Of a DNA stretch of 64,000 bases, positions 11,897-52,493 are shown in pieces. The stretch comes from Fistulifera solaris (taxonomy: Eukaryota), in the NCBI GenBank assembly GCA_030295235.1, contig AP026144.1:744001-808000 (forward strand). The letters are read 5' to 3'. The position numbers were made by a program, and so were the translations under genes. The notes beneath the pieces are model-generated. The model searched no databases, was not told where the DNA came from, and worked only from the letters and a program-made list of their open reading frames with translations. The stretch's first letter is position 1. Every line of letters begins with the position of its first letter.

Positions 11897-12391
11897 GTTT
11901 TTTCTTTCTCAAATTGCGCAGCAACAAAAGACCTGCTCTCTCCTAACTAATGACTTATTTTCCTCTTTGTGCGTCTTGCCCTTTGGTATCGTGATGATCT
12001 AATATGTATCAGATGTAAAGCAAACGAATAACGATATCGGAGGATTTGATTCAATCGTTTTCGAGGTCGAGGAATGGGTGCTTTGTGCGCACTCCGGGTA
12101 CGGTACCAGTACCCAAACTCCCAGTATTTGGTTTCGTAAACATACCAGGACGGTGCGGGAAATTGTGTACTTTCGCGTAGGCCCCAGTAGAGAAATGTAC
12201 CAAGCAGAGGTGCGTTCCCGTGTCTCCCAGGCACTGCCTTGCTATTCGTGAATGACAAGAAGTACAAGTACTATGGCATATTTTCACTTTAAGATTTTAG
12301 TTCACCTCTTTTTATGAGATTCATTCATTCATTGATGCAGCTGGATATGATGCCACGAAATAGACACAGATTTCAAACACCGGACGTTGCC

Positions 12392-39400: not shown

Positions 39401-42400
39401 TGCCATCTGTTGAACCGTATGGTGGACGATTGCCAGGACGACCAGGAAAGACATCCATTTTTGTCATTGCTTTACTGGTTGTGGTTACTGCGCGTTGAGG
39501 ACTTTATCAAAGATGCTAATGGAGTAGCGAAAGGAGGCAACGAGGCAACGCTTGCACGAGCCAAAAGTTTACTAGCAGAGCAACCAATACCTGCGACGCA
39601 TATACATGAAGTTTCGATTGTGCATAAAGCAGTTGACGTTGTCGAGCAACTTAGGCAATTGATCACGACTGCTGAGAATGTCGTCAAGACGACAGAAGAA
39701 TGTCTCAACGTTTCACGTAATTTGTTCCGTATCGCGTCTAGCAACGAATCTGCTGTACGATATCATTATCAAGAGCTTAAAGAAATGCTCACAAAATTGA
39801 AATTTCGATATAAGGAAGGTAGCGGCATTGTTCTGGAGCGGTCGCTTGAAACTCAAGTCGAGCTGATGTCGAAAGTATTCTCATGGCTTGTACGTGCGCC
39901 CGTTTATTTGTTTTCGTCATCATCGTATCGTCTCTCACTGTACACATCAGACCAGGACATTTTCTTATCCTATTCTGCATTCGCATGATCCGTCGCTGTG
40001 GCAGGGCGAGCACGTTAAGAACGATCCTCGAATTCCATGGGACGCTCTTGTATCGCTTGCCAATCAGTCACCTAACATTGGGGAAGAACAAGGTGATCTG
40101 GCGTGCATTAAACTAAGAGTAAAGGAACTGCATGACGAAGCACTGAAATGGCAGGAAGAGATATCTAGTCTTACTATGCTTTCGCTCAGAGGGGGGAAAC
40201 GGCGAAGCCCGGGCTCCTTGGAAGACACGAAGGCCTCATGTATCATCGACATGAGCAAAGTGGAAGAACTATGCAAGCATTCGATTCTTCATAAGGTGAG
40301 ATCACGTGGCGACAGTTTACACACCTTCGAGTCTTGCTCACAAATTTTCATTCCAGGTCTCATTCCCCAGGGAGGAGAGTATTAGGGACATGCTGCATAG
40401 GTCAAAAGAGTTCGAGCGGGCTCTATTTGATTTTCTTGGAAAAGACTATGATGGCGCCGATAGATCTGCTCTACCTGAAGGTGGCTCTCTGGTTGCCGCG
40501 GACGGATCTTTTCTTCCGTTGCGACTTACTGGAAGTCCGATGTATCAGGATATGATATCCGCCATCGGAAAAATATCGCACATCGCTGAGAATGTTTTTG
40601 CGCACACACCGGGAAAGGCTGCCTTCGATTGGATATGCTCAGCAGTATCATGGATTGAATCTTTAAACAAAGCGCTGGTGATTTCCGAGCAGGACTTAGA
40701 AGGGGAAAGTGCCAAAAATATTACCATCAGCAGAGATGCTGCTATACAATTGCTGCGTGAAGGGGAAGATGTATTTGTTGATGTACCCGAGGATCTTCGA
40801 AGGACTCTGAGTGAACACAAAATATACATTTCGAGTGCGAAAGAAGGAACGATGACTGTAAAGTCCCGGAAAGGAGGGGCTCATCATGCTCTTGGTGTTG
40901 TCGCGGTTCGTTGGTGCCCACTTCTTTTGAATCTCTTAAGTCAGACGTGAACACCTTGAATGAGTGGGAGTTGGTGTTGATGACCATTGCATTGACTTAT
41001 AATTGTATCCGACCAGCGCTTACTGATAACAGCGATCAGATTCAGAGGCCGGAAGACATTTGTTGGATTATGGACATGCGGGAGGCTTTAACGGATCTGT
41101 TTCATGGCTTAAAAGATCTTGTAATCATGCCCTCGTCAAAAGATATTGAATCTGTAAATAGTCTTTTGATCGATCTCGAAATGAGAGTAATACCGCATCT
41201 GAACGAGCGACTCATAACTTCACATTTGAATTGGAAATATGAGGAAGGACCACTCGTTATCAAGTCAAGATTTGATCATTTAGATGCCTTGGTGACCCGG
41301 CAACGTGTTTGCAAAGAGCGGAGTACGGATTCGCTCAATGGAAAGGGGTCTCACGACTCGGGTGGAAGAGTCGCAGCGAGGCGACTGCTATTCGCAGCAC
41401 TAAGGAAAAGCATGGCGGGTCTCAAGATACCGGATGATGACGAAACATTACATCATTGTTGCTCAGTAGCCTGGGAAATTGAAAATGCCGCTTGCGATGC
41501 GTTTTTGGAAAGTGTTAGCTCCGATACGATAAATTCACAGTACAAGGAAAAAATAAAGACCGTGAAGAGGAGCCTCGAGGACCCACGAAACAAGATACTG
41601 CAAGCTAGAGTGTTGACTGGTGATATTGCGCCCGAGAAATTAGTGACCATGTCTGTCGAAGAACTGGCCAATCCAGTGACGCAAAAGCAACGTGCTGCTG
41701 CAGAGTCTAAACAAAATAATGTTTTAGTTGCTCCACCTACAGCAACACGCAAAACGAGTCTTGAACCGGAAGTCCCCAATTCTTCAAGAAATAGTACGAG
41801 CAGTTCGAGCACAGAGAATACGACATTAGCAAATAAGCCTGCTGAAAAGACCCATGTTTCGATTGAAACCCACAGAACGCTTCCGCCACCCAAAATCTCT
41901 GCTTTTCGCGACTTGGCTCGAGCTGTTGAAGCTGCTACACGAAAACCTCCGCCTCCTCCACCTGCCTCGCTCGTCCCCAATCTCGTCGCCCCAGTCGAAC
42001 CGCAAAGCCACACCGTCACCAACAACACCAATGGAAGTAACATATTCCGTCTCTCCGTCGGCGGTTCCTACCATTTCACGGCAGAATTTCATGCCGAAGG
42101 CCGGATGGATCCGTACGTCTGTCATTTCATACCAGAACTTTTGGTGGAAACGCGTCGATCCCCATGGAAAGTTTTGGATCAATTCCTCCGCGAGAAGTTG
42201 CGTTCCGGCAAATATGAGATTGTTTCCCTGCGTCTGTTACCGTGCTCCGACAAAGACGCTCGCGTCTTGGACTCGTTTGCCAGAGATTACGAGCATCGGG
42301 ACCGTGTCTCGACGTGTCAAGTTCAAAACGAGAAACTGTATTTGATTACGCCACGATTTCAAAGCTTGTTGCGTGATGTAGTGCACTTCAAAATCATTCC

Positions 42401-42434
42401 GGGGACCTATGTCCTTTGGATTCGTTTGTTGTGA
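36454..42434 (+). CDS. Large nuclear protein: tandem Tudor-like N-terminus, PLU-1-like helical region, TFIIS central domain, Pro-rich linker, SPOC-like C-terminus
   Basis: Exons 36454-36591, 36668-39889, 39951-40295 and 40357-42434, with a 1-nt shift at about 40925. Motifs IYW...DWYDARI, IDW...GWYVANI and AWEIENA...YKEKIKTVKRSLEDPRN..L..RVLTGDIAPEKLVTMS.EELA. Confidence 0.75.
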
Positions 42435-42768
42435 ATGACTTTGTACAATAGAAGACAGTTTTGTGACAACCTTGATTATTTTTGCTATTACCTATTACGG
42501 AGTACTCCGTGTTTTTTATTTGACGTTTTACAGAATCGAACCGCGGTTCGCGGTTTCCTTGGAGAGGACGAGCGACGGACAAACTGCTTGTCATTGGTCA
42601 TTGCATTGCCTTGCATTGCTCTGGCCATTTTCACTTTTCTCTTCTCGCACATTACCTGGTAGCACATTTCCATTGCTTCTTTACTTTTCATACCTAAAAA
42701 TCAAAGGTCTCTTGATTCTATTATCCAATTTTCCTTCCTTCCTTCCTTCCTTTTCACACACAACAACC

Positions 42769-43726
42769 ATGCCCCCGTTCTTGATCCCTCTCGGTCGAAA
42801 GTAGACGGTCTCGCGTTTTTGGGCTTGAGTTTAGCACGCTCTTCGGACGTCGGTCATCCCCAGAGTGTGACACAACAAACAGCATTTGATTTGAATGAAA
42901 TTCAAGATCGCGCATACGAATTTGTGTTTAGTACGAATGACGATGGCTGGCTCGTGGGGGCGGTGAACCCTTGGATTCGTATAAATTACCGGCTCCTGAT
43001 AGTGCTCATGTAGAAATTATGCGCATCGGGACGTATCGACCCGAATGGGGTGGTCTTGATCGTGAGAAACTCATTGCGGCTTTACAATCAGGAGATATTT
43101 TGATTCCGCAGATCGAAGTGGTTCCGACGGCCGTCGTTGCGAATGGAGATGTACCTCCGGAGCTCGAAATACGATTCGATATGGACTACGAAGTGGGTTC
43201 CGAGGAAGAATTCATGCACTGCAAGGATGAAAATCTTCCCGTCAATTGGCAGCTGCGATTTTTACACAATCAATTGTTTCACAAATTCCAATTTCCTTCT
43301 CGTTTCTGTCCCGGAGCACATCATTCGACGATACTTCGCAAAGCCGACTTTCGAAGCTTAAAACATCGGGATGCGTATTTCCAAAAATGTGATCAAGTCG
43401 TCAGTCAGTGGAGAACAAAGGGTGTTCAGCCTCTCGTTTGGGATCCCGCCAACGATACACCCGGAATACAACGCCTGGCTTGTCAACATCATCAAGGCCA
43501 AGTCATCAATGATCCGACCCATCAATCCGGTCTATACTTGTTTACCGATCGCACCCGCATTACGCACCACTTTGCTCCCAACTTTTTGCCGCCCTACAAT
43601 ACACCCGAAAAGCGTCAGATTATTTACAAGTTTTTAAAAGAGCAATGGAACGAAACTACGCTATCATGGCAACCCGTTGTTTCGAAGAAACGGCAACTGG
43701 ATGAACAAGATATTGACAATAAATGA
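42769..43726 (+). CDS. Hypothetical protein, possibly 2H-phosphoesterase-like; frameshifts at about 42800 and 42960
   Basis: Three consecutive ORF pieces; two His motifs (AHVEI, HHSTIL). Confidence 0.6.
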
Positions 43727-48378: not shown

Positions 48379-48803
48379 TAGACGTTCATTTTCAGTCGGA
48401 TTTCAACGTCCCCAACTTGTACACGGCATTTTCCTCTTTTTTACAGAGATCGATGGAAAACAAAGGGTATGAGCTTCTTAATCCTAAACTCGTGCTATAC
48501 ATTCTCTTTGAATCAGCGTACTTCAAAGACAGCTGCAGTCTATTCTAGGATCTGAAATCACGTTGTTACATTGATAAGTCGAGGTACATCAACGGTTCCT
48601 ACCATAGAAAATATGAATAATATTGACCTTGCTGATCGCTTACAAACTCGCTTCACACTCTTAACAGTGTTAAGCCTGACATGGATTCAAATCAAGCCTA
48701 ACTAAATGCTCTGCCGATACAATGCAGTTTGCAGGATAACAGCCTACTACTCTAGATGAGTGAATGATTACATTATTATGAATAGTAAATCGGGTTCAAT
48801 CCG

Positions 48804-48834
48804 TGACTCATGACGGGTTCATGGATTGACGTCA
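48804..48834. promoter_or_regulatory. Clustered bZIP-type sites (TGACTCA, TGACG, TGACGTCA) upstream of the selenoprotein gene
   Basis: TGACTCA at 48804, TGACG at 48811 and TGACGTCA at 48827, about 145-170 bp before the ATG. Confidence 0.4.
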
Positions 48835-48976
48835 TCGCAGCCCTTGCTCGAAAGAACGTCAAACCACATCATCGGACGCCGCGAAATCAAGGAGACAATA
48901 ACAGAAGTCCAAGCAACTACAAGTAGTGCTTCAAATTTTCCTACTTGTGTTGTTCCAATCAACAAGAAGACGAACG

Positions 48977-49816
48977 ATGCGAGTCGCTGTTGCTACTGCC
49001 GCTTTGGCGGCTTTGGCAGTCGGTGCTACTGCATTCCAACCTCACAAATCGTCATCGAGAAGCGTGTTTGTGCCTTCAACCAGCATCTTGGCTAGTTCGA
49101 CAGTCGATAATACAAATGATGCCCCTTGCGCTATGCCTGACAATGTGGGAGTACCCCCTGGAGTCACGGCTAAAACACTGAGATCGGCTGTTCTCACGAA
49201 TGCCGACGGCGAATCCGTTCGATTGGGTGACAAAATGGGCCCCGGCACGTCGATAGTGATTTTCCTACGTCACATGGGATGACTATACTGCTGGGGTTAT
49301 GCCAAATCATGGTGTGAACTCCAGCAAAAGGAAGGATCGAATGATATTGCTGGTCCTATCTTTGTCAGTATCGGTGACAAGGAAAAGCTCGAACTCTTCT
49401 TGAAAAAGAACCCGTATGTTTCGCGTGAGCAGATTTTGGTCGATAACTTCAACGACTTTGCCGCCTACAAAGCGGCAGGATTCGGACGCTTTGATGAACA
49501 AAGCAAAGAAACGATCAAGGCCGCAAAAGATAACATGGCCTCACCAGACCTAGGTGGCTGGAAGGGCGCGATGACTTACCTATCAAGTGTAGGGAAATTA
49601 TCTCCCATTCCTGCCGACATAAAATTCGGTCAAATTCCGGAAGGAGTATTGCGCCTTGGTGGAACCTTTGTCGTTTCTGGAAATGACATTGTATACCAAT
49701 GGAGTGATCGACTTCCAGGCGACCACCCTGACATTGAGAAAGTGTGGAGCATCGCGAAGGAGGCTTCTCACAAGAAGGGACTCTTTTCGCAAGTCTCGAA
49801 AGTCTTCGGTCTATAA
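48977..49816 (+). CDS. Plastid-targeted AhpC/TSA-like (PRXL2/SelU family) selenoprotein; Sec codon TGA at 49280-49282
   Basis: A single frame from ATG 48977 to TAA 49816 with one internal TGA in IVIFLRHMG-U-LYC (UxxC). C-terminal LRLGGTFVV...DHPDI; ATAF bipartite presequence; no GT donor that could remove the TGA. Confidence 0.88.
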
Positions 49817-49861
49817 TATATTAAGAGTAGCCGCATGGGGTTATTGGTATGTCTCGGAGGT

Positions 49862-49920
49862 TTTGAACTGTACATGACGCTGTGACAATATCGATCGTTA
49901 CAGCTGAAGAAACAAGTGAA
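49862..49920 (+). promoter_or_regulatory. Candidate SECIS element
   Basis: ATGAC-GCTGTGAC-AA-tatcgatc-GTTACAGC-TGAA: non-Watson-Crick core (AUGA/GA), an 8-bp stem with one GU pair, and apical AA, about 57 nt after the stop. The helix is shorter than the canonical 11-12 nt. Confidence 0.65.
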
Positions 49921-50137
49921 CGCACAGCATACTGCAATCAAAGATTATACACTGTATTAATATTGATAATCTTTTTAGCCGCTATTTGCTTTTCGAGTTG
50001 CATTTCGCTTGCAAAGAAATGACACAAGAGCTCTGCTAAAAAACCAAAGGAAACTATAAGCTTGTTAAATCTAGTACCGGTAGGATTCTCTTTTCGGGTT
50101 GAACCGTTAAATACTGAGTAATTCTGTTCCTACAGAT

Positions 50138-52493
50138 ATGGCTAGTTGTGTGGGCTTTAGTCCGAAGGAGACATCGGAAATTAATTATGAAACGTCACTA
50201 GCACGCCTGTCGACGTCTCTTTTTTCTCAGCGAGCGAGAACACGATTACTATTACGTACAAATACTTGCAGAGCTGCTTTGCATCTATTTTATTCCCCAT
50301 TCTCTCTTTTTCTGCATAGGACAAACAATGTGTTCATTAAGCGATCAAATATCACAAAACTCTTCACAGATTCCCGTTTCAGTTCGCACCGTTTTGCGCG
50401 TGCGGCCGTTTTGAAGAGAGAGCGCGATGATGCTGAAGTTTTGAAACCGATCGACACATCGACAGTCGTCATGGGGCCGCAGCCAGCAGTTCAAATGCTT
50501 TCGCCTTCCTCTGCTCTTGTGAAGCAAACTATAGACCCTGAGAACAATCATGATGAAGACTTCTCCTTTGATCTTGTCCTGAGGTCGACCTCCACGCAAG
50601 AAGACATGTACTTCGCGTTTGGATCCAACATGGCGCAACAAGCCATGGAGCCTTTGAAGGCTTCAAAGGACCATGACAATATCCAAACTTCCTTAATTAT
50701 TAGCATGGGGCTTTCTAACTCGGGAAAAACCTTTTCTTGCTGGGGTGATCATTGTCTGGGTACTCAAAAGCTGCCCCAAGACGGCATGTTGCCTCGCATT
50801 TTGGATTCATTATTTGCTCAGTCAGCACACTTTGTCGAAAAGAAGCAAGGGCTTTCTTTTGGAGTTGAAATATCGGTGGTTCAAGTGGGGAACCGTGATG
50901 GTGTTATCAATGATCTGCTCAAGTCGTCGTCTCGCCGCTCGATTCGCTCGACAATATCATCTTTTTCTCGTAATCGAAATGTCGATAGCCCCTTTCAAAG
51001 TCACAATTCCGTCATGATTGAACAGGACCCGATATCACTGGAATGTCGGCTGAAAAATCAGCAACGCAAGCTTTGTCTTTCATGGGAAGATGCACGACTG
51101 GCATTGAAGAAAGCTGTCAAAATCCGACACAATAATGCCAGACCTGGCCACGTGCTAGTACAAACTCGCCCCGTAATGGTGAATCGATCGCTCAAAGTAG
51201 TTGAAAAGGGAGGAATGATAGCCATTCTGGAAATGGAGAGCCTCATTAATGGGAAGAAAATAAAGGCCGGAAGAATTAAAGATACTATTCCCAACCGGAC
51301 CGATGCTTATGGGTCCGTGATGCAATGTCTTCGGGTGGCACTTGACAACCAAAATGACCCAAACAATGCAAAGAACGTACCGTTTGTCCAACACAAAGTA
51401 ACTATGCTACTGCAGTCCATTTTTCTGCCAGAAAATACTGATTCCATTGACGTGACTGTTCTTGTGACGGCATATCCTGGAGATCGCGATTACATAGAGA
51501 AAAAAAGAACTCCTCAGGGACATGCAGCTACTTCGCCAAAAAGTTCGAACGAATTATGTGATTACTGAAATGGCTTCGAGCAAAAGCATGAAAAGTGATT
51601 TCGAAGCTAACTGCGCCTACGATTGCACTAGTCGGAATCAGACGAGTCGTCTACGAAAACACAGCAATGACTTCTCTGACGGGGGTGGAAGAAAAACCGA
51701 AAAGGAAAAGGCGCTTAACGAGCGAAAAAGTCCCGAAAAACTATCATCCAATGTTGGTGCCACCAAGAGTAAGAAGACTCCTGATCTTGATGTAATGTTT
51801 AAGCGATGCGATAGGTCGGGCGAAGATATTGTACCTCTTCCACCGCCACCTGTTGCCCCTGGATATCGGCCTCGTTCGGCTTTGTTTCAACAAAATAGGT
51901 CCGAACCACGACTTTTGTCTCCCCGTCGAATGTCTGTGTGCAAAGCGTCGGCCCCTGTGGAAGAGACGATTTCTTTTTCCGAGGCAAATCTCGCTCTTGT
52001 TGACTTCCCAGGGGTGGTAGTTCCGAAGAGTCTTATGCCGACGAAAAATCTCAAAGAAGAACAAGAGGCTGGAGATGATGAGGGTTACATCAGTTTCGTG
52101 GAGGACCACGGTGATGGATATCAGGTCAGAGAGATGGCGCCAATCGCCTTTTCGACATGTGATTCGGTGCAAATTTCTGGTCGCGCTTTCAAATCTCGGG
52201 ATACTTTATTAGGAAAACGCGTGGAATTTTTGAGCAAAGAAAATGAATACCTAAGAGCTGAGAATGAAAGTATCAAACGTGAGCTGGTGTACTTGAAGCA
52301 AGAACTTGAAAATAGATTTTCCATGGAGTCGCGTTGGAAAGCGTCGAATAGCTTACGAAAGGCACATGCAGAGGAAAATCATACGTTTGGCCGCTATAAG
52401 CAACCTTCTTATTTGATTCCTTTTGGTTCAGGATCAACCCGAAGTCACACGAAAGAGCCCTCCGTCTCCGATATTTCCAATAGATACCCCTAG
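50138..52493 (+). CDS. Divergent kinesin-like protein; frameshift at the A7 run, about 51500; probable short intron ending at 50319
   Basis: FSFDLV, STQEDMY, P-loop GLSNSGKTFS, DGMLPRILDSLF and VPF..HKVTMLLQ; C-terminal coiled coil. Confidence 0.75.

What the first reader, a model, noticed from the sequence alone, without database searches (positions are those of the whole stretch)
48977..49920. Hidden plastid-targeted selenoprotein: UGA recoding in a UxxC peroxiredoxin-like protein, with a compact SECIS
Seen in sequence: the ORF track splits this gene (48926..49282 and 49400..49816), but both halves are in the same frame and are joined by a stop-free stretch after one TGA, giving FLRHMG-TGA-LYC. 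The TGA sits exactly at the first Cys of the CxxC motif of PRXL2/SelU (AhpC-TSA_2) proteins. The 3' UTR has an AUGA...AA...GA hairpin (49874-49908). The N-terminus is a signal peptide plus ATAF plus a Ser/Thr-rich transit peptide. Established knowledge: eukaryotic Sec insertion needs a 3' UTR SECIS, and ASAF-type presequences target diatom plastids. Inference: this is a Sec-dependent redox enzyme made on ER-bound ribosomes and imported into the complex plastid. Automated annotation would likely mis-call it as two fragments or a pseudogene. The SECIS upper helix is atypically short (9 nt between AUGA and AA).
Basis: partly seen in the sequence, partly recalled or inferred. Interest (0 to 1): 0.88.

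Follow-up and report, generated by a model that had tools for sequence, protein, structure and literature searches.

The report
Plastid-type selenoprotein gene in a diatom
This is a real gene for a selenium-containing redox enzyme of a diatom, probably sent to the chloroplast, which the public annotation mis-models but which belongs to a selenoprotein family already known from diatoms.

Summary
One frame runs from ATG 48977 to TAA 49816 with a single in-frame TGA (49280-49282), giving a 279-aa protein with a U-x-x-C motif.

- **Conservation:** the TGA is at the same column in 77 of 80 related metagenome loci. One locus has TGC and two were not placed.
- **SECIS:** a covariance model built only from the relatives' 3' UTR elements puts its best hit in the 64-kb window at 49860-49921 (20.3 bits, E 0.0047; E 2.3e-5 within the 3' UTR). 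The single Cys-form locus has no such element.
- **Fold:** the predicted fold is closest to human prostamide/PGF synthase (PRXL2B). The Sec column aligns with its catalytic C44.
- **Targeting:** the N-terminus is a hydrophobic signal peptide ending in ATA|F, followed by a Ser/Thr-rich stretch. 65 of 72 distinct relatives share this layout.
- **Annotation:** the window matches Fistulifera solaris FisN_7Lh351, whose public model lacks the 23 codons that hold the TGA.

SelU-type selenoproteins are already described in diatoms (PMC2375036, PMC7539508). This is a correct but largely ordinary finding. The conserved plastid presequence is the only modestly new aspect.

The parts
48977..49816 (+). Complete intron-less coding sequence of a 279-aa selenoprotein (stop TAA 49814-49816)
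   Evidence: Translation with TGA=U. It is collinear with full-length relatives. The relatives also start with MR/MK.
48977..49033 (+). Signal peptide, residues 1-19, ending ATA with F at +1
   Evidence: Hydrophobic stretch (mean Kyte-Doolittle 2.6 over 8 residues) followed by ATA|FQP. 65 of 72 distinct relatives show the same layout.
49034..49120 (+). Transit-peptide-like stretch, about residues 20-48. It is Ser/Thr-rich and has no acidic residue in its first 20 residues.
   Evidence: 7 S/T, 2 basic and 0 acidic residues in the 20 residues after the F. pLDDT is below 50 for residues 1-57. Alignment conservation starts near 'PC..P'.
49148..49813 (+). Mature thioredoxin-fold domain (residues 58-279), PRXL2 / AhpC-TSA_2 type
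   Evidence: AlphaFold2 block pLDDT is mostly 87-96 from residue 61. Foldseek's top hits are human prostamide/PGF synthase 9usa/9us9 (E 1.9e-7, TM on target 0.73-0.79). PF13911 is hit by 16 of 28 family members.
49280..49282 (+). In-frame TGA = Sec codon (U102)
   Evidence: TGA at this column in 77 of 80 related loci and TGC in 1. It aligns with C44 of human PGFS.
49280..49291 (+). U-L-Y-C redox motif (U102, C105) at the N-terminal end of helix 103-119, after strand 91-99
   Evidence: Secondary structure of the model. Profile alignment to the CxxC (C44/C47) of 9us9.
49860..49921 (+). SECIS element. Helix I 49867-49871 with 49912-49917; AUGA 49874-49877; helix II 49879-49886 with 49897-49904; loop 49887-49896 starting with AA; UGA 49905-49907.
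   Evidence: MFE fold. Hit of model R1, built from 32 relatives without the window: 20.3 bits, E 0.0047 in the window and 2.3e-5 in the 3' UTR.
49256..49324 (+). 69-nt GT..AG stretch that the public gene model evidently treats as an intron, removing the TGA and the redox motif. Most likely an annotation artefact.
   Evidence: P0002 is identical to P0001 where aligned but lacks 23 residues here. GT at 49256 and AG at 49323-49324. Relatives keep this stretch.

Best explanation
This is a nuclear gene of the diatom Fistulifera solaris for a selenocysteine-containing thiol/selenol oxidoreductase of the PRXL2 / AhpC-TSA_2 (SelU-type) family.

**Shown**
- One uninterrupted frame with a single UGA at codon 102.
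- That UGA is conserved across the family and alternates with Cys.
- The 3' UTR carries a stem-loop with the AUGA / AA / GA signature that the family's other UGA-containing genes share at the same place.
- The predicted domain is a thioredoxin fold with U102-x-x-C105 at the start of the first helix, matching the catalytic CxxC of human prostamide/PGF synthase.

**Inferred**
- The SECIS recruits the Sec insertion machinery, so UGA102 is read as Sec.
- The protein is made on ER-bound ribosomes. Its signal peptide is cut after ATA. The exposed Phe plus the Ser/Thr-rich transit part carry it through the outer membranes of the complex plastid into the stroma.
- There the selenolate of U102 attacks a peroxide, endoperoxide or disulfide substrate. 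C105 resolves the selenenyl intermediate, and a thioredoxin-type reductant recycles the enzyme.

My odds are about 0.93 for a true selenoprotein with SECIS, about 0.75 for plastid location, and 0.5 or less for any particular substrate.
For: **Frame and TGA**
- Frame and TGA.
- The TGA is confirmed in a read-derived contig.
- TGA at the column in 77 of 80 related loci, TGC in 1, 2 not placed.
- Among 27 aligned database proteins: C in 15, W in 8, gap in 4.
- Most database relatives are C-terminal fragments. About 95 of the 120 listed are 153-175 aa and cover about 50-58% of the query. 122 of the 150 listed start at profile position 100 or later, by my count. This is what gene callers produce when they stop at a Sec codon.

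**SECIS**
- Family elements share 'AUGAC-G ... C-UGA' with flanking helix I.
- In 32 relatives, helix II is 82% paired, 10 of 10 pairs show changes on both sides, and 0 of 500 shuffles reach the observed score.
- Model R1 without the window finds 49860-49921 as the best hit of 128 kb searched (E 0.0047), and E 2.3e-5 in the 3' UTR.
- R1 hits 65 of 80 loci at E<=1, all on the + strand. The ones I checked lie downstream of the coding sequence. It does not hit the Cys-form locus L028.

**Fold and family**
-. The Atlas neighbours of the Cys homologue P0007 are all PF13911 clusters.

**Presequence**
-. The 'ASAFAP' motif for diatom plastid proteins appears in the abstract of PMC4329603 (listing).
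Against: - Rfam's SECIS families do not hit the element. They also miss all 20 related loci tested, so this says little.
- The hairpin's free energy is no better than that of shuffles (z = 0.02).
- The elements used for the model were picked by a helix score, so the pairing percentage is partly by construction.
- Pfam gives no hit for the window's own protein at E<=0.1. The profile match to PRXL2B in the PDB is weak by sequence (E 0.0093).
- No RNA data for this organism could be found, so neither the absence of splicing nor the transcript's 3' end is shown.
- No genome was held, so the Sec machinery (tRNA-Sec, eEFSec, SBP2, PSTK, SepSecS, SPS) could not be checked. The window has no tRNA gene.
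- Plastid targeting rests on my own heuristic, not on SignalP, ASAFind or localisation data.
Confidence: 0.8

Rival explanations
1. It is the same selenoprotein, but it is not a stromal plastid protein. The signal peptide sends it to the ER or secretory pathway, or it stops in the periplastidial compartment.
For: Only a heuristic was run. A hydrophobic N-terminus alone is equally compatible with secretion. Many known selenoproteins are ER-resident (recalled).
Against: Phe sits directly after a small-x-small site in the window and in 65 of 72 distinct relatives. It is followed by a Ser/Thr-rich, acid-poor stretch of about 30 residues that is not conserved in sequence and is predicted disordered. 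This is the bipartite layout described for diatom plastid proteins (abstract of PMC4329603). Atlas neighbours of a Cys homologue are plant PF13911 proteins of 250-270 aa. I recall plant members being annotated as chloroplastic.
Confidence: 0.12
2. The public gene model is right. A 69-nt intron (49256-49324) removes the TGA, and the product is a 256-aa protein without Sec.
For: The stretch starts with GT, ends with AG and is a multiple of three. The deposited protein P0002 lacks exactly these residues.
Against: The removed stretch is the most conserved part of the N-terminal half and holds the catalytic motif. 77 of 80 related loci keep it in frame with the TGA. Without it the strand-helix unit that carries the active site would be lost. 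The gene has a SECIS, which a Sec-less gene does not need. Other public models (P0026, P0108, P0109) show similar gaps at the same place, a typical gene-caller response to an in-frame stop.
Confidence: 0.03
3. The TGA is a true stop: a pseudogene, a sequencing error, or a 101-aa truncated product.
For: By the standard code the frame ends at 49282.
Against: The TGA is present in a read-derived contig. The downstream 177 codons are open and 57-78% identical to the closest relatives. The same TGA is in 77 of 80 loci.
Confidence: 0.03

Closest known systems
SelU / SELENOU-type selenoproteins of algae and diatoms (PF13911 family)
   Same: Thioredoxin-fold protein with UxxC in place of CxxC, UGA plus a 3' UTR SECIS, and Sec/Cys alternation among relatives. 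Two SelU genes are reported in Thalassiosira pseudonana (PMC2375036, passages read). SELENOU is reported among the most widespread Sec proteins in 36 algal genomes, in a survey that mentions F. solaris (PMC7539508, passages read).
   Different: Neither paper's main text holds the words plastid, chloroplast or signal peptide in connection with it (0 occurrences of 'plastid', 'signal peptide', 'subcellular' in PMC7539508). Orthology to vertebrate SelU (PRXL2A type; name recalled) was not tested.
Human prostamide/prostaglandin F synthase (PRXL2B, PDB 9us9/9usa)
   Same: Best structural match (Foldseek E 1.9e-7, TM on target 0.73-0.79) and the only PDB sequence-profile match (E 0.0093). The Sec column equals C44, and C105 equals C47 of its CxxC.
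   Different: Only 18-22% identity. The human enzyme uses Cys, is cytosolic (recalled) and is about 198 aa. The diatom protein has a roughly 57-residue presequence and extra helices around residues 177-208.
Plant AhpC-TSA_2 proteins and animal peroxiredoxin-like 2C (AAED1)
   Same: Nearest ESM-Atlas clusters of the Cys homologue P0007 (score 0.91-0.93, 173-177 of 256 features shared, all PF13911, lengths 245-271 aa).
   Different: These are Cys proteins. The Atlas comparison is a lead without an alignment, and it was run on a homologue, not on the window's protein. The chloroplast annotation of the plant members is recalled, not tested.
Canonical eukaryotic SECIS (type 1)
   Same: Helix I, an internal loop, an AUGA...GA quartet, helix II, and AA at the start of the apical loop.
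   Different: It is very compact. At 34 nt core to core it is the shortest of 47 distinct family elements (median 52). It has 9 nt between AUGA and AA, against a family mode of 10. It is not recognised by the Rfam SECIS models.

Membership tests
Eukaryotic selenoprotein gene | In-frame UGA flanked on both sides by conserved coding sequence | tested here: met
Eukaryotic selenoprotein gene | UGA column aligned with Cys in some homologues | tested here: met
   TGC in L028. C in 15 of 27 aligned database proteins.
Eukaryotic selenoprotein gene | SECIS stem-loop (AUGA, AA, GA, two helices) in the 3' UTR | tested here: met
   The Rfam SECIS models give no hit, but they also miss 20 of 20 relatives. 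SECISearch3 was not available.
Eukaryotic selenoprotein gene | Sec machinery in the same genome (tRNA-Sec, eEFSec, SBP2, PSTK, SepSecS, SPS) | not testable with these tools
   No genome is held for the window. There is no tRNA in the window.
Eukaryotic selenoprotein gene | Selenium actually incorporated | not testable with these tools
   Needs 75Se labelling or mass spectrometry.
PRXL2 / SelU (Pfam PF13911 AhpC-TSA_2) | Match to the Pfam model | tested here: inconclusive
   The window's protein has no hit at E<=0.1. 16 of 28 aligned family members hit PF13911, best E 9.9e-10.
PRXL2 / SelU (Pfam PF13911 AhpC-TSA_2) | Thioredoxin fold with CxxC/UxxC at the N-terminus of the first helix | tested here: met
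PRXL2 / SelU (Pfam PF13911 AhpC-TSA_2) | Orthology to a named subfamily (PRXL2A/SelU, PRXL2B, PRXL2C/AAED1) | not tested
   No reference sequences were on hand for a tree. There are leads only: PRXL2B by structure, and PRXL2C and plant clusters by Atlas features of a homologue.
Diatom plastid-targeted protein (bipartite presequence) | N-terminal hydrophobic signal peptide | tested here: met
   Own hydropathy heuristic. SignalP was not available.
Diatom plastid-targeted protein (bipartite presequence) | ASAFAP-like cleavage motif with Phe at +1 | tested here: met
   ATA|FQP at residues 17-22. Present in 65 of 72 distinct relatives.
Diatom plastid-targeted protein (bipartite presequence) | Transit-peptide-like region after the motif | tested here: met
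   7 S/T, 2 basic and 0 acidic in 20 residues. Predicted disordered.
Diatom plastid-targeted protein (bipartite presequence) | ASAFind/HECTAR score or experimental localisation | not testable with these tools
   No such predictor is available here. GFP fusion is proposed.

The most novel reading that the evidence does not exclude
The family may be a distinct clade of PRXL2C/AAED1-like reductases that is almost always Sec-containing and is specific to complex plastids. It is conserved across diatoms and is also seen in a chrysophyte and in Euglena transcripts. That would make it a conserved selenoenzyme of secondary plastids. It has probably stayed out of plastid-proteome predictions because gene callers truncate or mis-splice it at the UGA.
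Probability: 0.35. Interest if true: 0.5.

Novelty: new member of a known kind. Interest (0 to 1): 0.27.

Why it matters
The finding corrects a public gene model. FisN_7Lh351 of Fistulifera solaris loses its catalytic motif to a spurious 69-nt intron. It adds one well-supported selenoprotein with its SECIS to this oil-producing diatom.

More broadly, nearly all close relatives carry a plastid-type presequence, yet most appear in protein databases only as C-terminal fragments. Selenium dependence of plastid redox protection in diatoms may therefore be under-counted. The selenoprotein family itself is already known from diatoms, so the advance is incremental.

Tried and rejected
- **Rfam:** searching 48500-50500 at E<=10 gave no SECIS family, only three chance-level hits. 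The same search on 20 related loci gave none either, so Rfam is insensitive here.
- **MFE fold:** the z-score against shuffles is 0.02, so thermodynamic stability alone does not mark the element.
- **First SECIS scans:** my first two rigid scans (perfect helix, or an enforced closing pair) found an element in only 32 of 80 UTRs. A scan allowing two defects found the shared layout.
- **Other R1 hits in the window:** 42421-42480 (E 0.52), 42923-43013 (E 0.66) and 12238-12268 (E 2.4). Helix II is not aligned in them, and the first overlaps the stop codon of the upstream ORF. I rejected them as SECIS candidates.
- **Pfam and PDB sequence searches** with the single protein gave nothing.
- **RNA evidence:** no RNA holder was listed. 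The one run that holds the stretch covers genes and intergenic DNA evenly and looks like DNA.
- **Whole genome:** none is held. ARAGORN finds no tRNA in the window.
- **Poly(A) tails:** I looked for tails at the ends of related contigs to show that they are transcripts. Only 3 of 80 have them, so I make no claim.
- **Earlier notes of this scan:** none exist for this genome.
- **Names for ten full-length distant representatives:** only 'hypothetical protein' and 'AhpC/TSA antioxidant enzyme' came back.

Full report
**Observation**

One search lists the two ORFs 48926..49282 and 49400..49816 in the same frame. With TGA read as Sec, the frame from ATG 48977 to TAA 49814-49816 is open and gives 279 residues. 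The local sequence is FLRHMG-U-LYC, with U102 at codon 49280-49282. A contig of a public run that holds 99% of the sampled words of the stretch covers 49165-49336 without a difference. That run covers coding and intergenic DNA evenly. It is probably genomic DNA of the same organism, so it excludes an assembly slip but is not independent.

**Organism and public annotation**

The best database hit is Fistulifera solaris FisN_7Lh351 (P0002, 256 aa). It is identical to the window's protein wherever the two align. It lacks 23 residues that include the TGA and the redox motif. At the DNA level this corresponds to a 69-nt stretch, 49256-49324, that starts with GT and ends with AG.

Three other public or transcriptome-derived models show gaps at the same place (P0026 Attheya, P0108 Pseudo-nitzschia, P0109). 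I read these as gene callers avoiding an in-frame stop.

**Is the TGA a Sec codon?**

In the alignment of 27 database relatives the column holds C in 15, W in 8 and a gap in 4. I take W to be TGA translated as Trp by a caller using another code.

Protein databases are biased against Sec forms:
- About 95 of the 120 hits listed are 153-175-aa pieces covering only the C-terminal 50-58% of the query.
- 122 of the 150 best representatives in the exhaustive search begin at profile position 100 or later (my count from the table).

I therefore went to DNA. Of 204 confirmed metagenome stretches the best 80 were fetched. A script located the motif and read the codon. It found TGA in 77 loci and TGC in one (L028). 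Two were not placed: L014 starts after the site, and L053 has a variant motif. Coding conservation continues for 155-192 codons after the TGA in these loci. A nonsense mutation, an error or a true stop cannot explain this.

**SECIS**

The window's 3' UTR (49817 to the next gene's ATG at 50138) has one AUGA-type candidate. Its parts are:
- helix I, 49867-49871 with 49912-49917;
- AUGA, 49874-49877;
- helix II, 8 bp, 49879-49886 with 49897-49904;
- a 10-nt loop beginning with AA;
- UGA, 49905-49907.

Its folding energy is unremarkable (z = 0.02). Rfam's SECIS families do not hit it, but they also miss all 20 related loci tested.

The relatives' 3' UTRs carry a strikingly similar element 25-243 nt (median 83) after the stop codon. 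Its layout is helix I, (G/A)GA-AUGAC-G, helix II, often AA about 10 nt after AUGA, then C-UGA-N and the return strand of helix I.

I aligned 32 such elements without the window (32 of the 40 distinct elements that passed my filter, the eight longest dropped). On this alignment helix II is 82% paired. All 10 pairs show changes on both sides, and 0 of 500 shuffles reach the observed score. Slid registers score far lower. Helix I is only 48% paired in fixed columns because its register varies. Because I chose the elements by a helix score, the pairing percentage is partly by construction.

The stronger test is the covariance model R1 built from this alignment.
- Over the whole 64-kb window, both strands, its best hit is 49860-49921 (+), at 20.3 bits and E 0.0047. 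The next hits have E 0.52 or more.
- Restricted to the 3' UTR, E is 2.3e-5.
- On the 80 loci it hits 65 at E<=1, all on the coding strand. The Cys-form locus L028 has no hit and no candidate in any of my scans.

The window's element is the most compact of 47 distinct family elements, at 34 nt core to core against a median of 52. Its 9-nt AUGA-to-AA spacing lies within the family's 6-14 range, whose mode is 10. It is compact, not aberrant.

**Protein family**

- Pfam does not hit the window's protein at E<=0.1. 16 of the 28 aligned sequences hit PF13911 AhpC-TSA_2, with best E 9.9e-10.
- A profile of the alignment finds one relevant solved structure, human prostamide/prostaglandin F synthase 9us9 (E 0.0093). 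The Sec column lies on C44 and C105 on C47 of its CxxC. The title of 9usa names the C44S/C47S mutant.
- The AlphaFold2 model (mean pLDDT 78; residues 1-57 below 50; the domain mostly 87-96) puts U102 between strand 91-99 and helix 103-119. This is the classical active-site position of the thioredoxin fold (established knowledge).
- Foldseek ranks 9usa/9us9 first (E 1.9e-7, TM on target 0.73-0.79). Thiol peroxidases, AhpE and Bcp peroxiredoxins follow.
- The ESM Atlas would not take the recoded protein. For the natural Cys homologue P0007 its nearest clusters are all PF13911: plant proteins of 250-271 aa, a haptophyte-rich cluster, and 'peroxiredoxin-like 2C' of chordates. This is a lead only.
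- Names of distant full-length representatives are 'hypothetical protein' (Nitzschia inconspicua, Ochromonadaceae sp.), a Euglena gracilis transcript, and 'AhpC/TSA antioxidant enzyme'.

**Targeting**

Residues 1-19 are hydrophobic and end in ATA. F20 follows. The next 20 residues hold 7 Ser/Thr, 2 basic and no acidic residues. Of 72 distinct N-termini of relatives with at least 85 residues before the Sec, 65 pass the same home-made test: a hydrophobic stretch, then [AGSC]|F. Several of the seven misses show xxA|F by eye but fall below my thresholds.

This layout is what the abstract of PMC4329603 (listing) describes as the bipartite presequence with the 'ASAFAP' motif. The importance of Phe at +1 for stromal import is recalled. 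No predictor or experiment backs this here, so I put plastid location at about 0.75.

**Mechanism**

- Shown: the frame, the conserved UGA, the family-wide 3' UTR element, the fold, the active-site position and the presequence layout.
- Inferred: SECIS-dependent Sec insertion at U102; co-translational ER entry; cleavage after A19; import into the plastid; and a selenolate-based reduction of a peroxide, endoperoxide or disulfide, resolved by C105 and recycled by a thioredoxin-type reductant.

The substrate is unknown. The likeness to an endoperoxide reductase suggests lipid hydroperoxides or oxylipin-type substrates, but that is speculation.

**What is known**

- PMC2375036 (passages read) reports 16 selenoproteins in Thalassiosira pseudonana, including two SelU. 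[quoted passage not shown]
- PMC7539508 (passages read) surveys algal selenoproteomes. It gives 20-44 selenoprotein genes per diatom and names SELENOU among the four most widespread Sec proteins in 36 genomes. It mentions Fistulifera solaris once.
- Its main text has no occurrence of 'plastid', 'signal peptide' or 'subcellular'. Its supplements could not be opened, so the locus may already be listed there.
- Searches for selenoprotein + plastid + diatom (30 papers), selenoprotein + plastid + diatom + ASAFind, Fistulifera + selenoprotein (2 papers), 'selenoprotein U' + chloroplast (6 papers) and AAED1 + chloroplast (3 papers) showed no title or abstract about a plastid-targeted SelU-type protein. 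I saw the listings only.

**Verdict**

This is a correct and well-supported call of a selenoprotein gene with its SECIS, mis-modelled in the public record. It belongs to a family long known to be Sec-containing in diatoms. The conserved plastid-type presequence and the systematic truncation of the family in protein databases are the only modestly new points. Interest is low to moderate.

Noticed in passing
window 49312-49447: The public run X1 holds two contig versions of this stretch at similar depth (23 and 21.8). One is identical to the window and one has 5 differences (49342, 49351, 49379, 49403, 49417). This suggests two alleles or homoeologous copies in the source organism.
   Followed up: no
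window 42421-42480 and 42923-43013 (+): These are weak hits of the family SECIS model (E 0.52 and 0.66) with GAAUGAC...UGA cores but no aligned helix II. The first overlaps the TGA that ends the long ORF 40635-42433. They are probably chance.
   Followed up: partly
P0003 (database protein, 226 aa, from a 1303-nt contig): It is 78% identical to the window's protein over 226 residues, with W at the Sec column, i.e. TGA. It may be the second subgenome copy of F. solaris or a sister species.
   Followed up: partly
P0002 name line: One source labels the F. solaris protein's UniRef entry 'Chalcone isomerase domain-contain...'. Nothing in the fold or family results supports this.
   Followed up: no
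window 50138-52493 (+): The downstream neighbours are two long ORFs (476 and 323 aa) on the same strand, overlapping by 47 nt in different frames. They may be one gene with an intron or frame change. Not examined.
   Followed up: no
L028 and proteins P0008, P0010, P0013, P0014, P0016, P0018: A Cys-containing sub-group of the family has 'LACPYCW' instead of 'LGUPYCW' and keeps the xxS|F presequence. The one locus seen has TGC and no SECIS-like element.
   Followed up: partly
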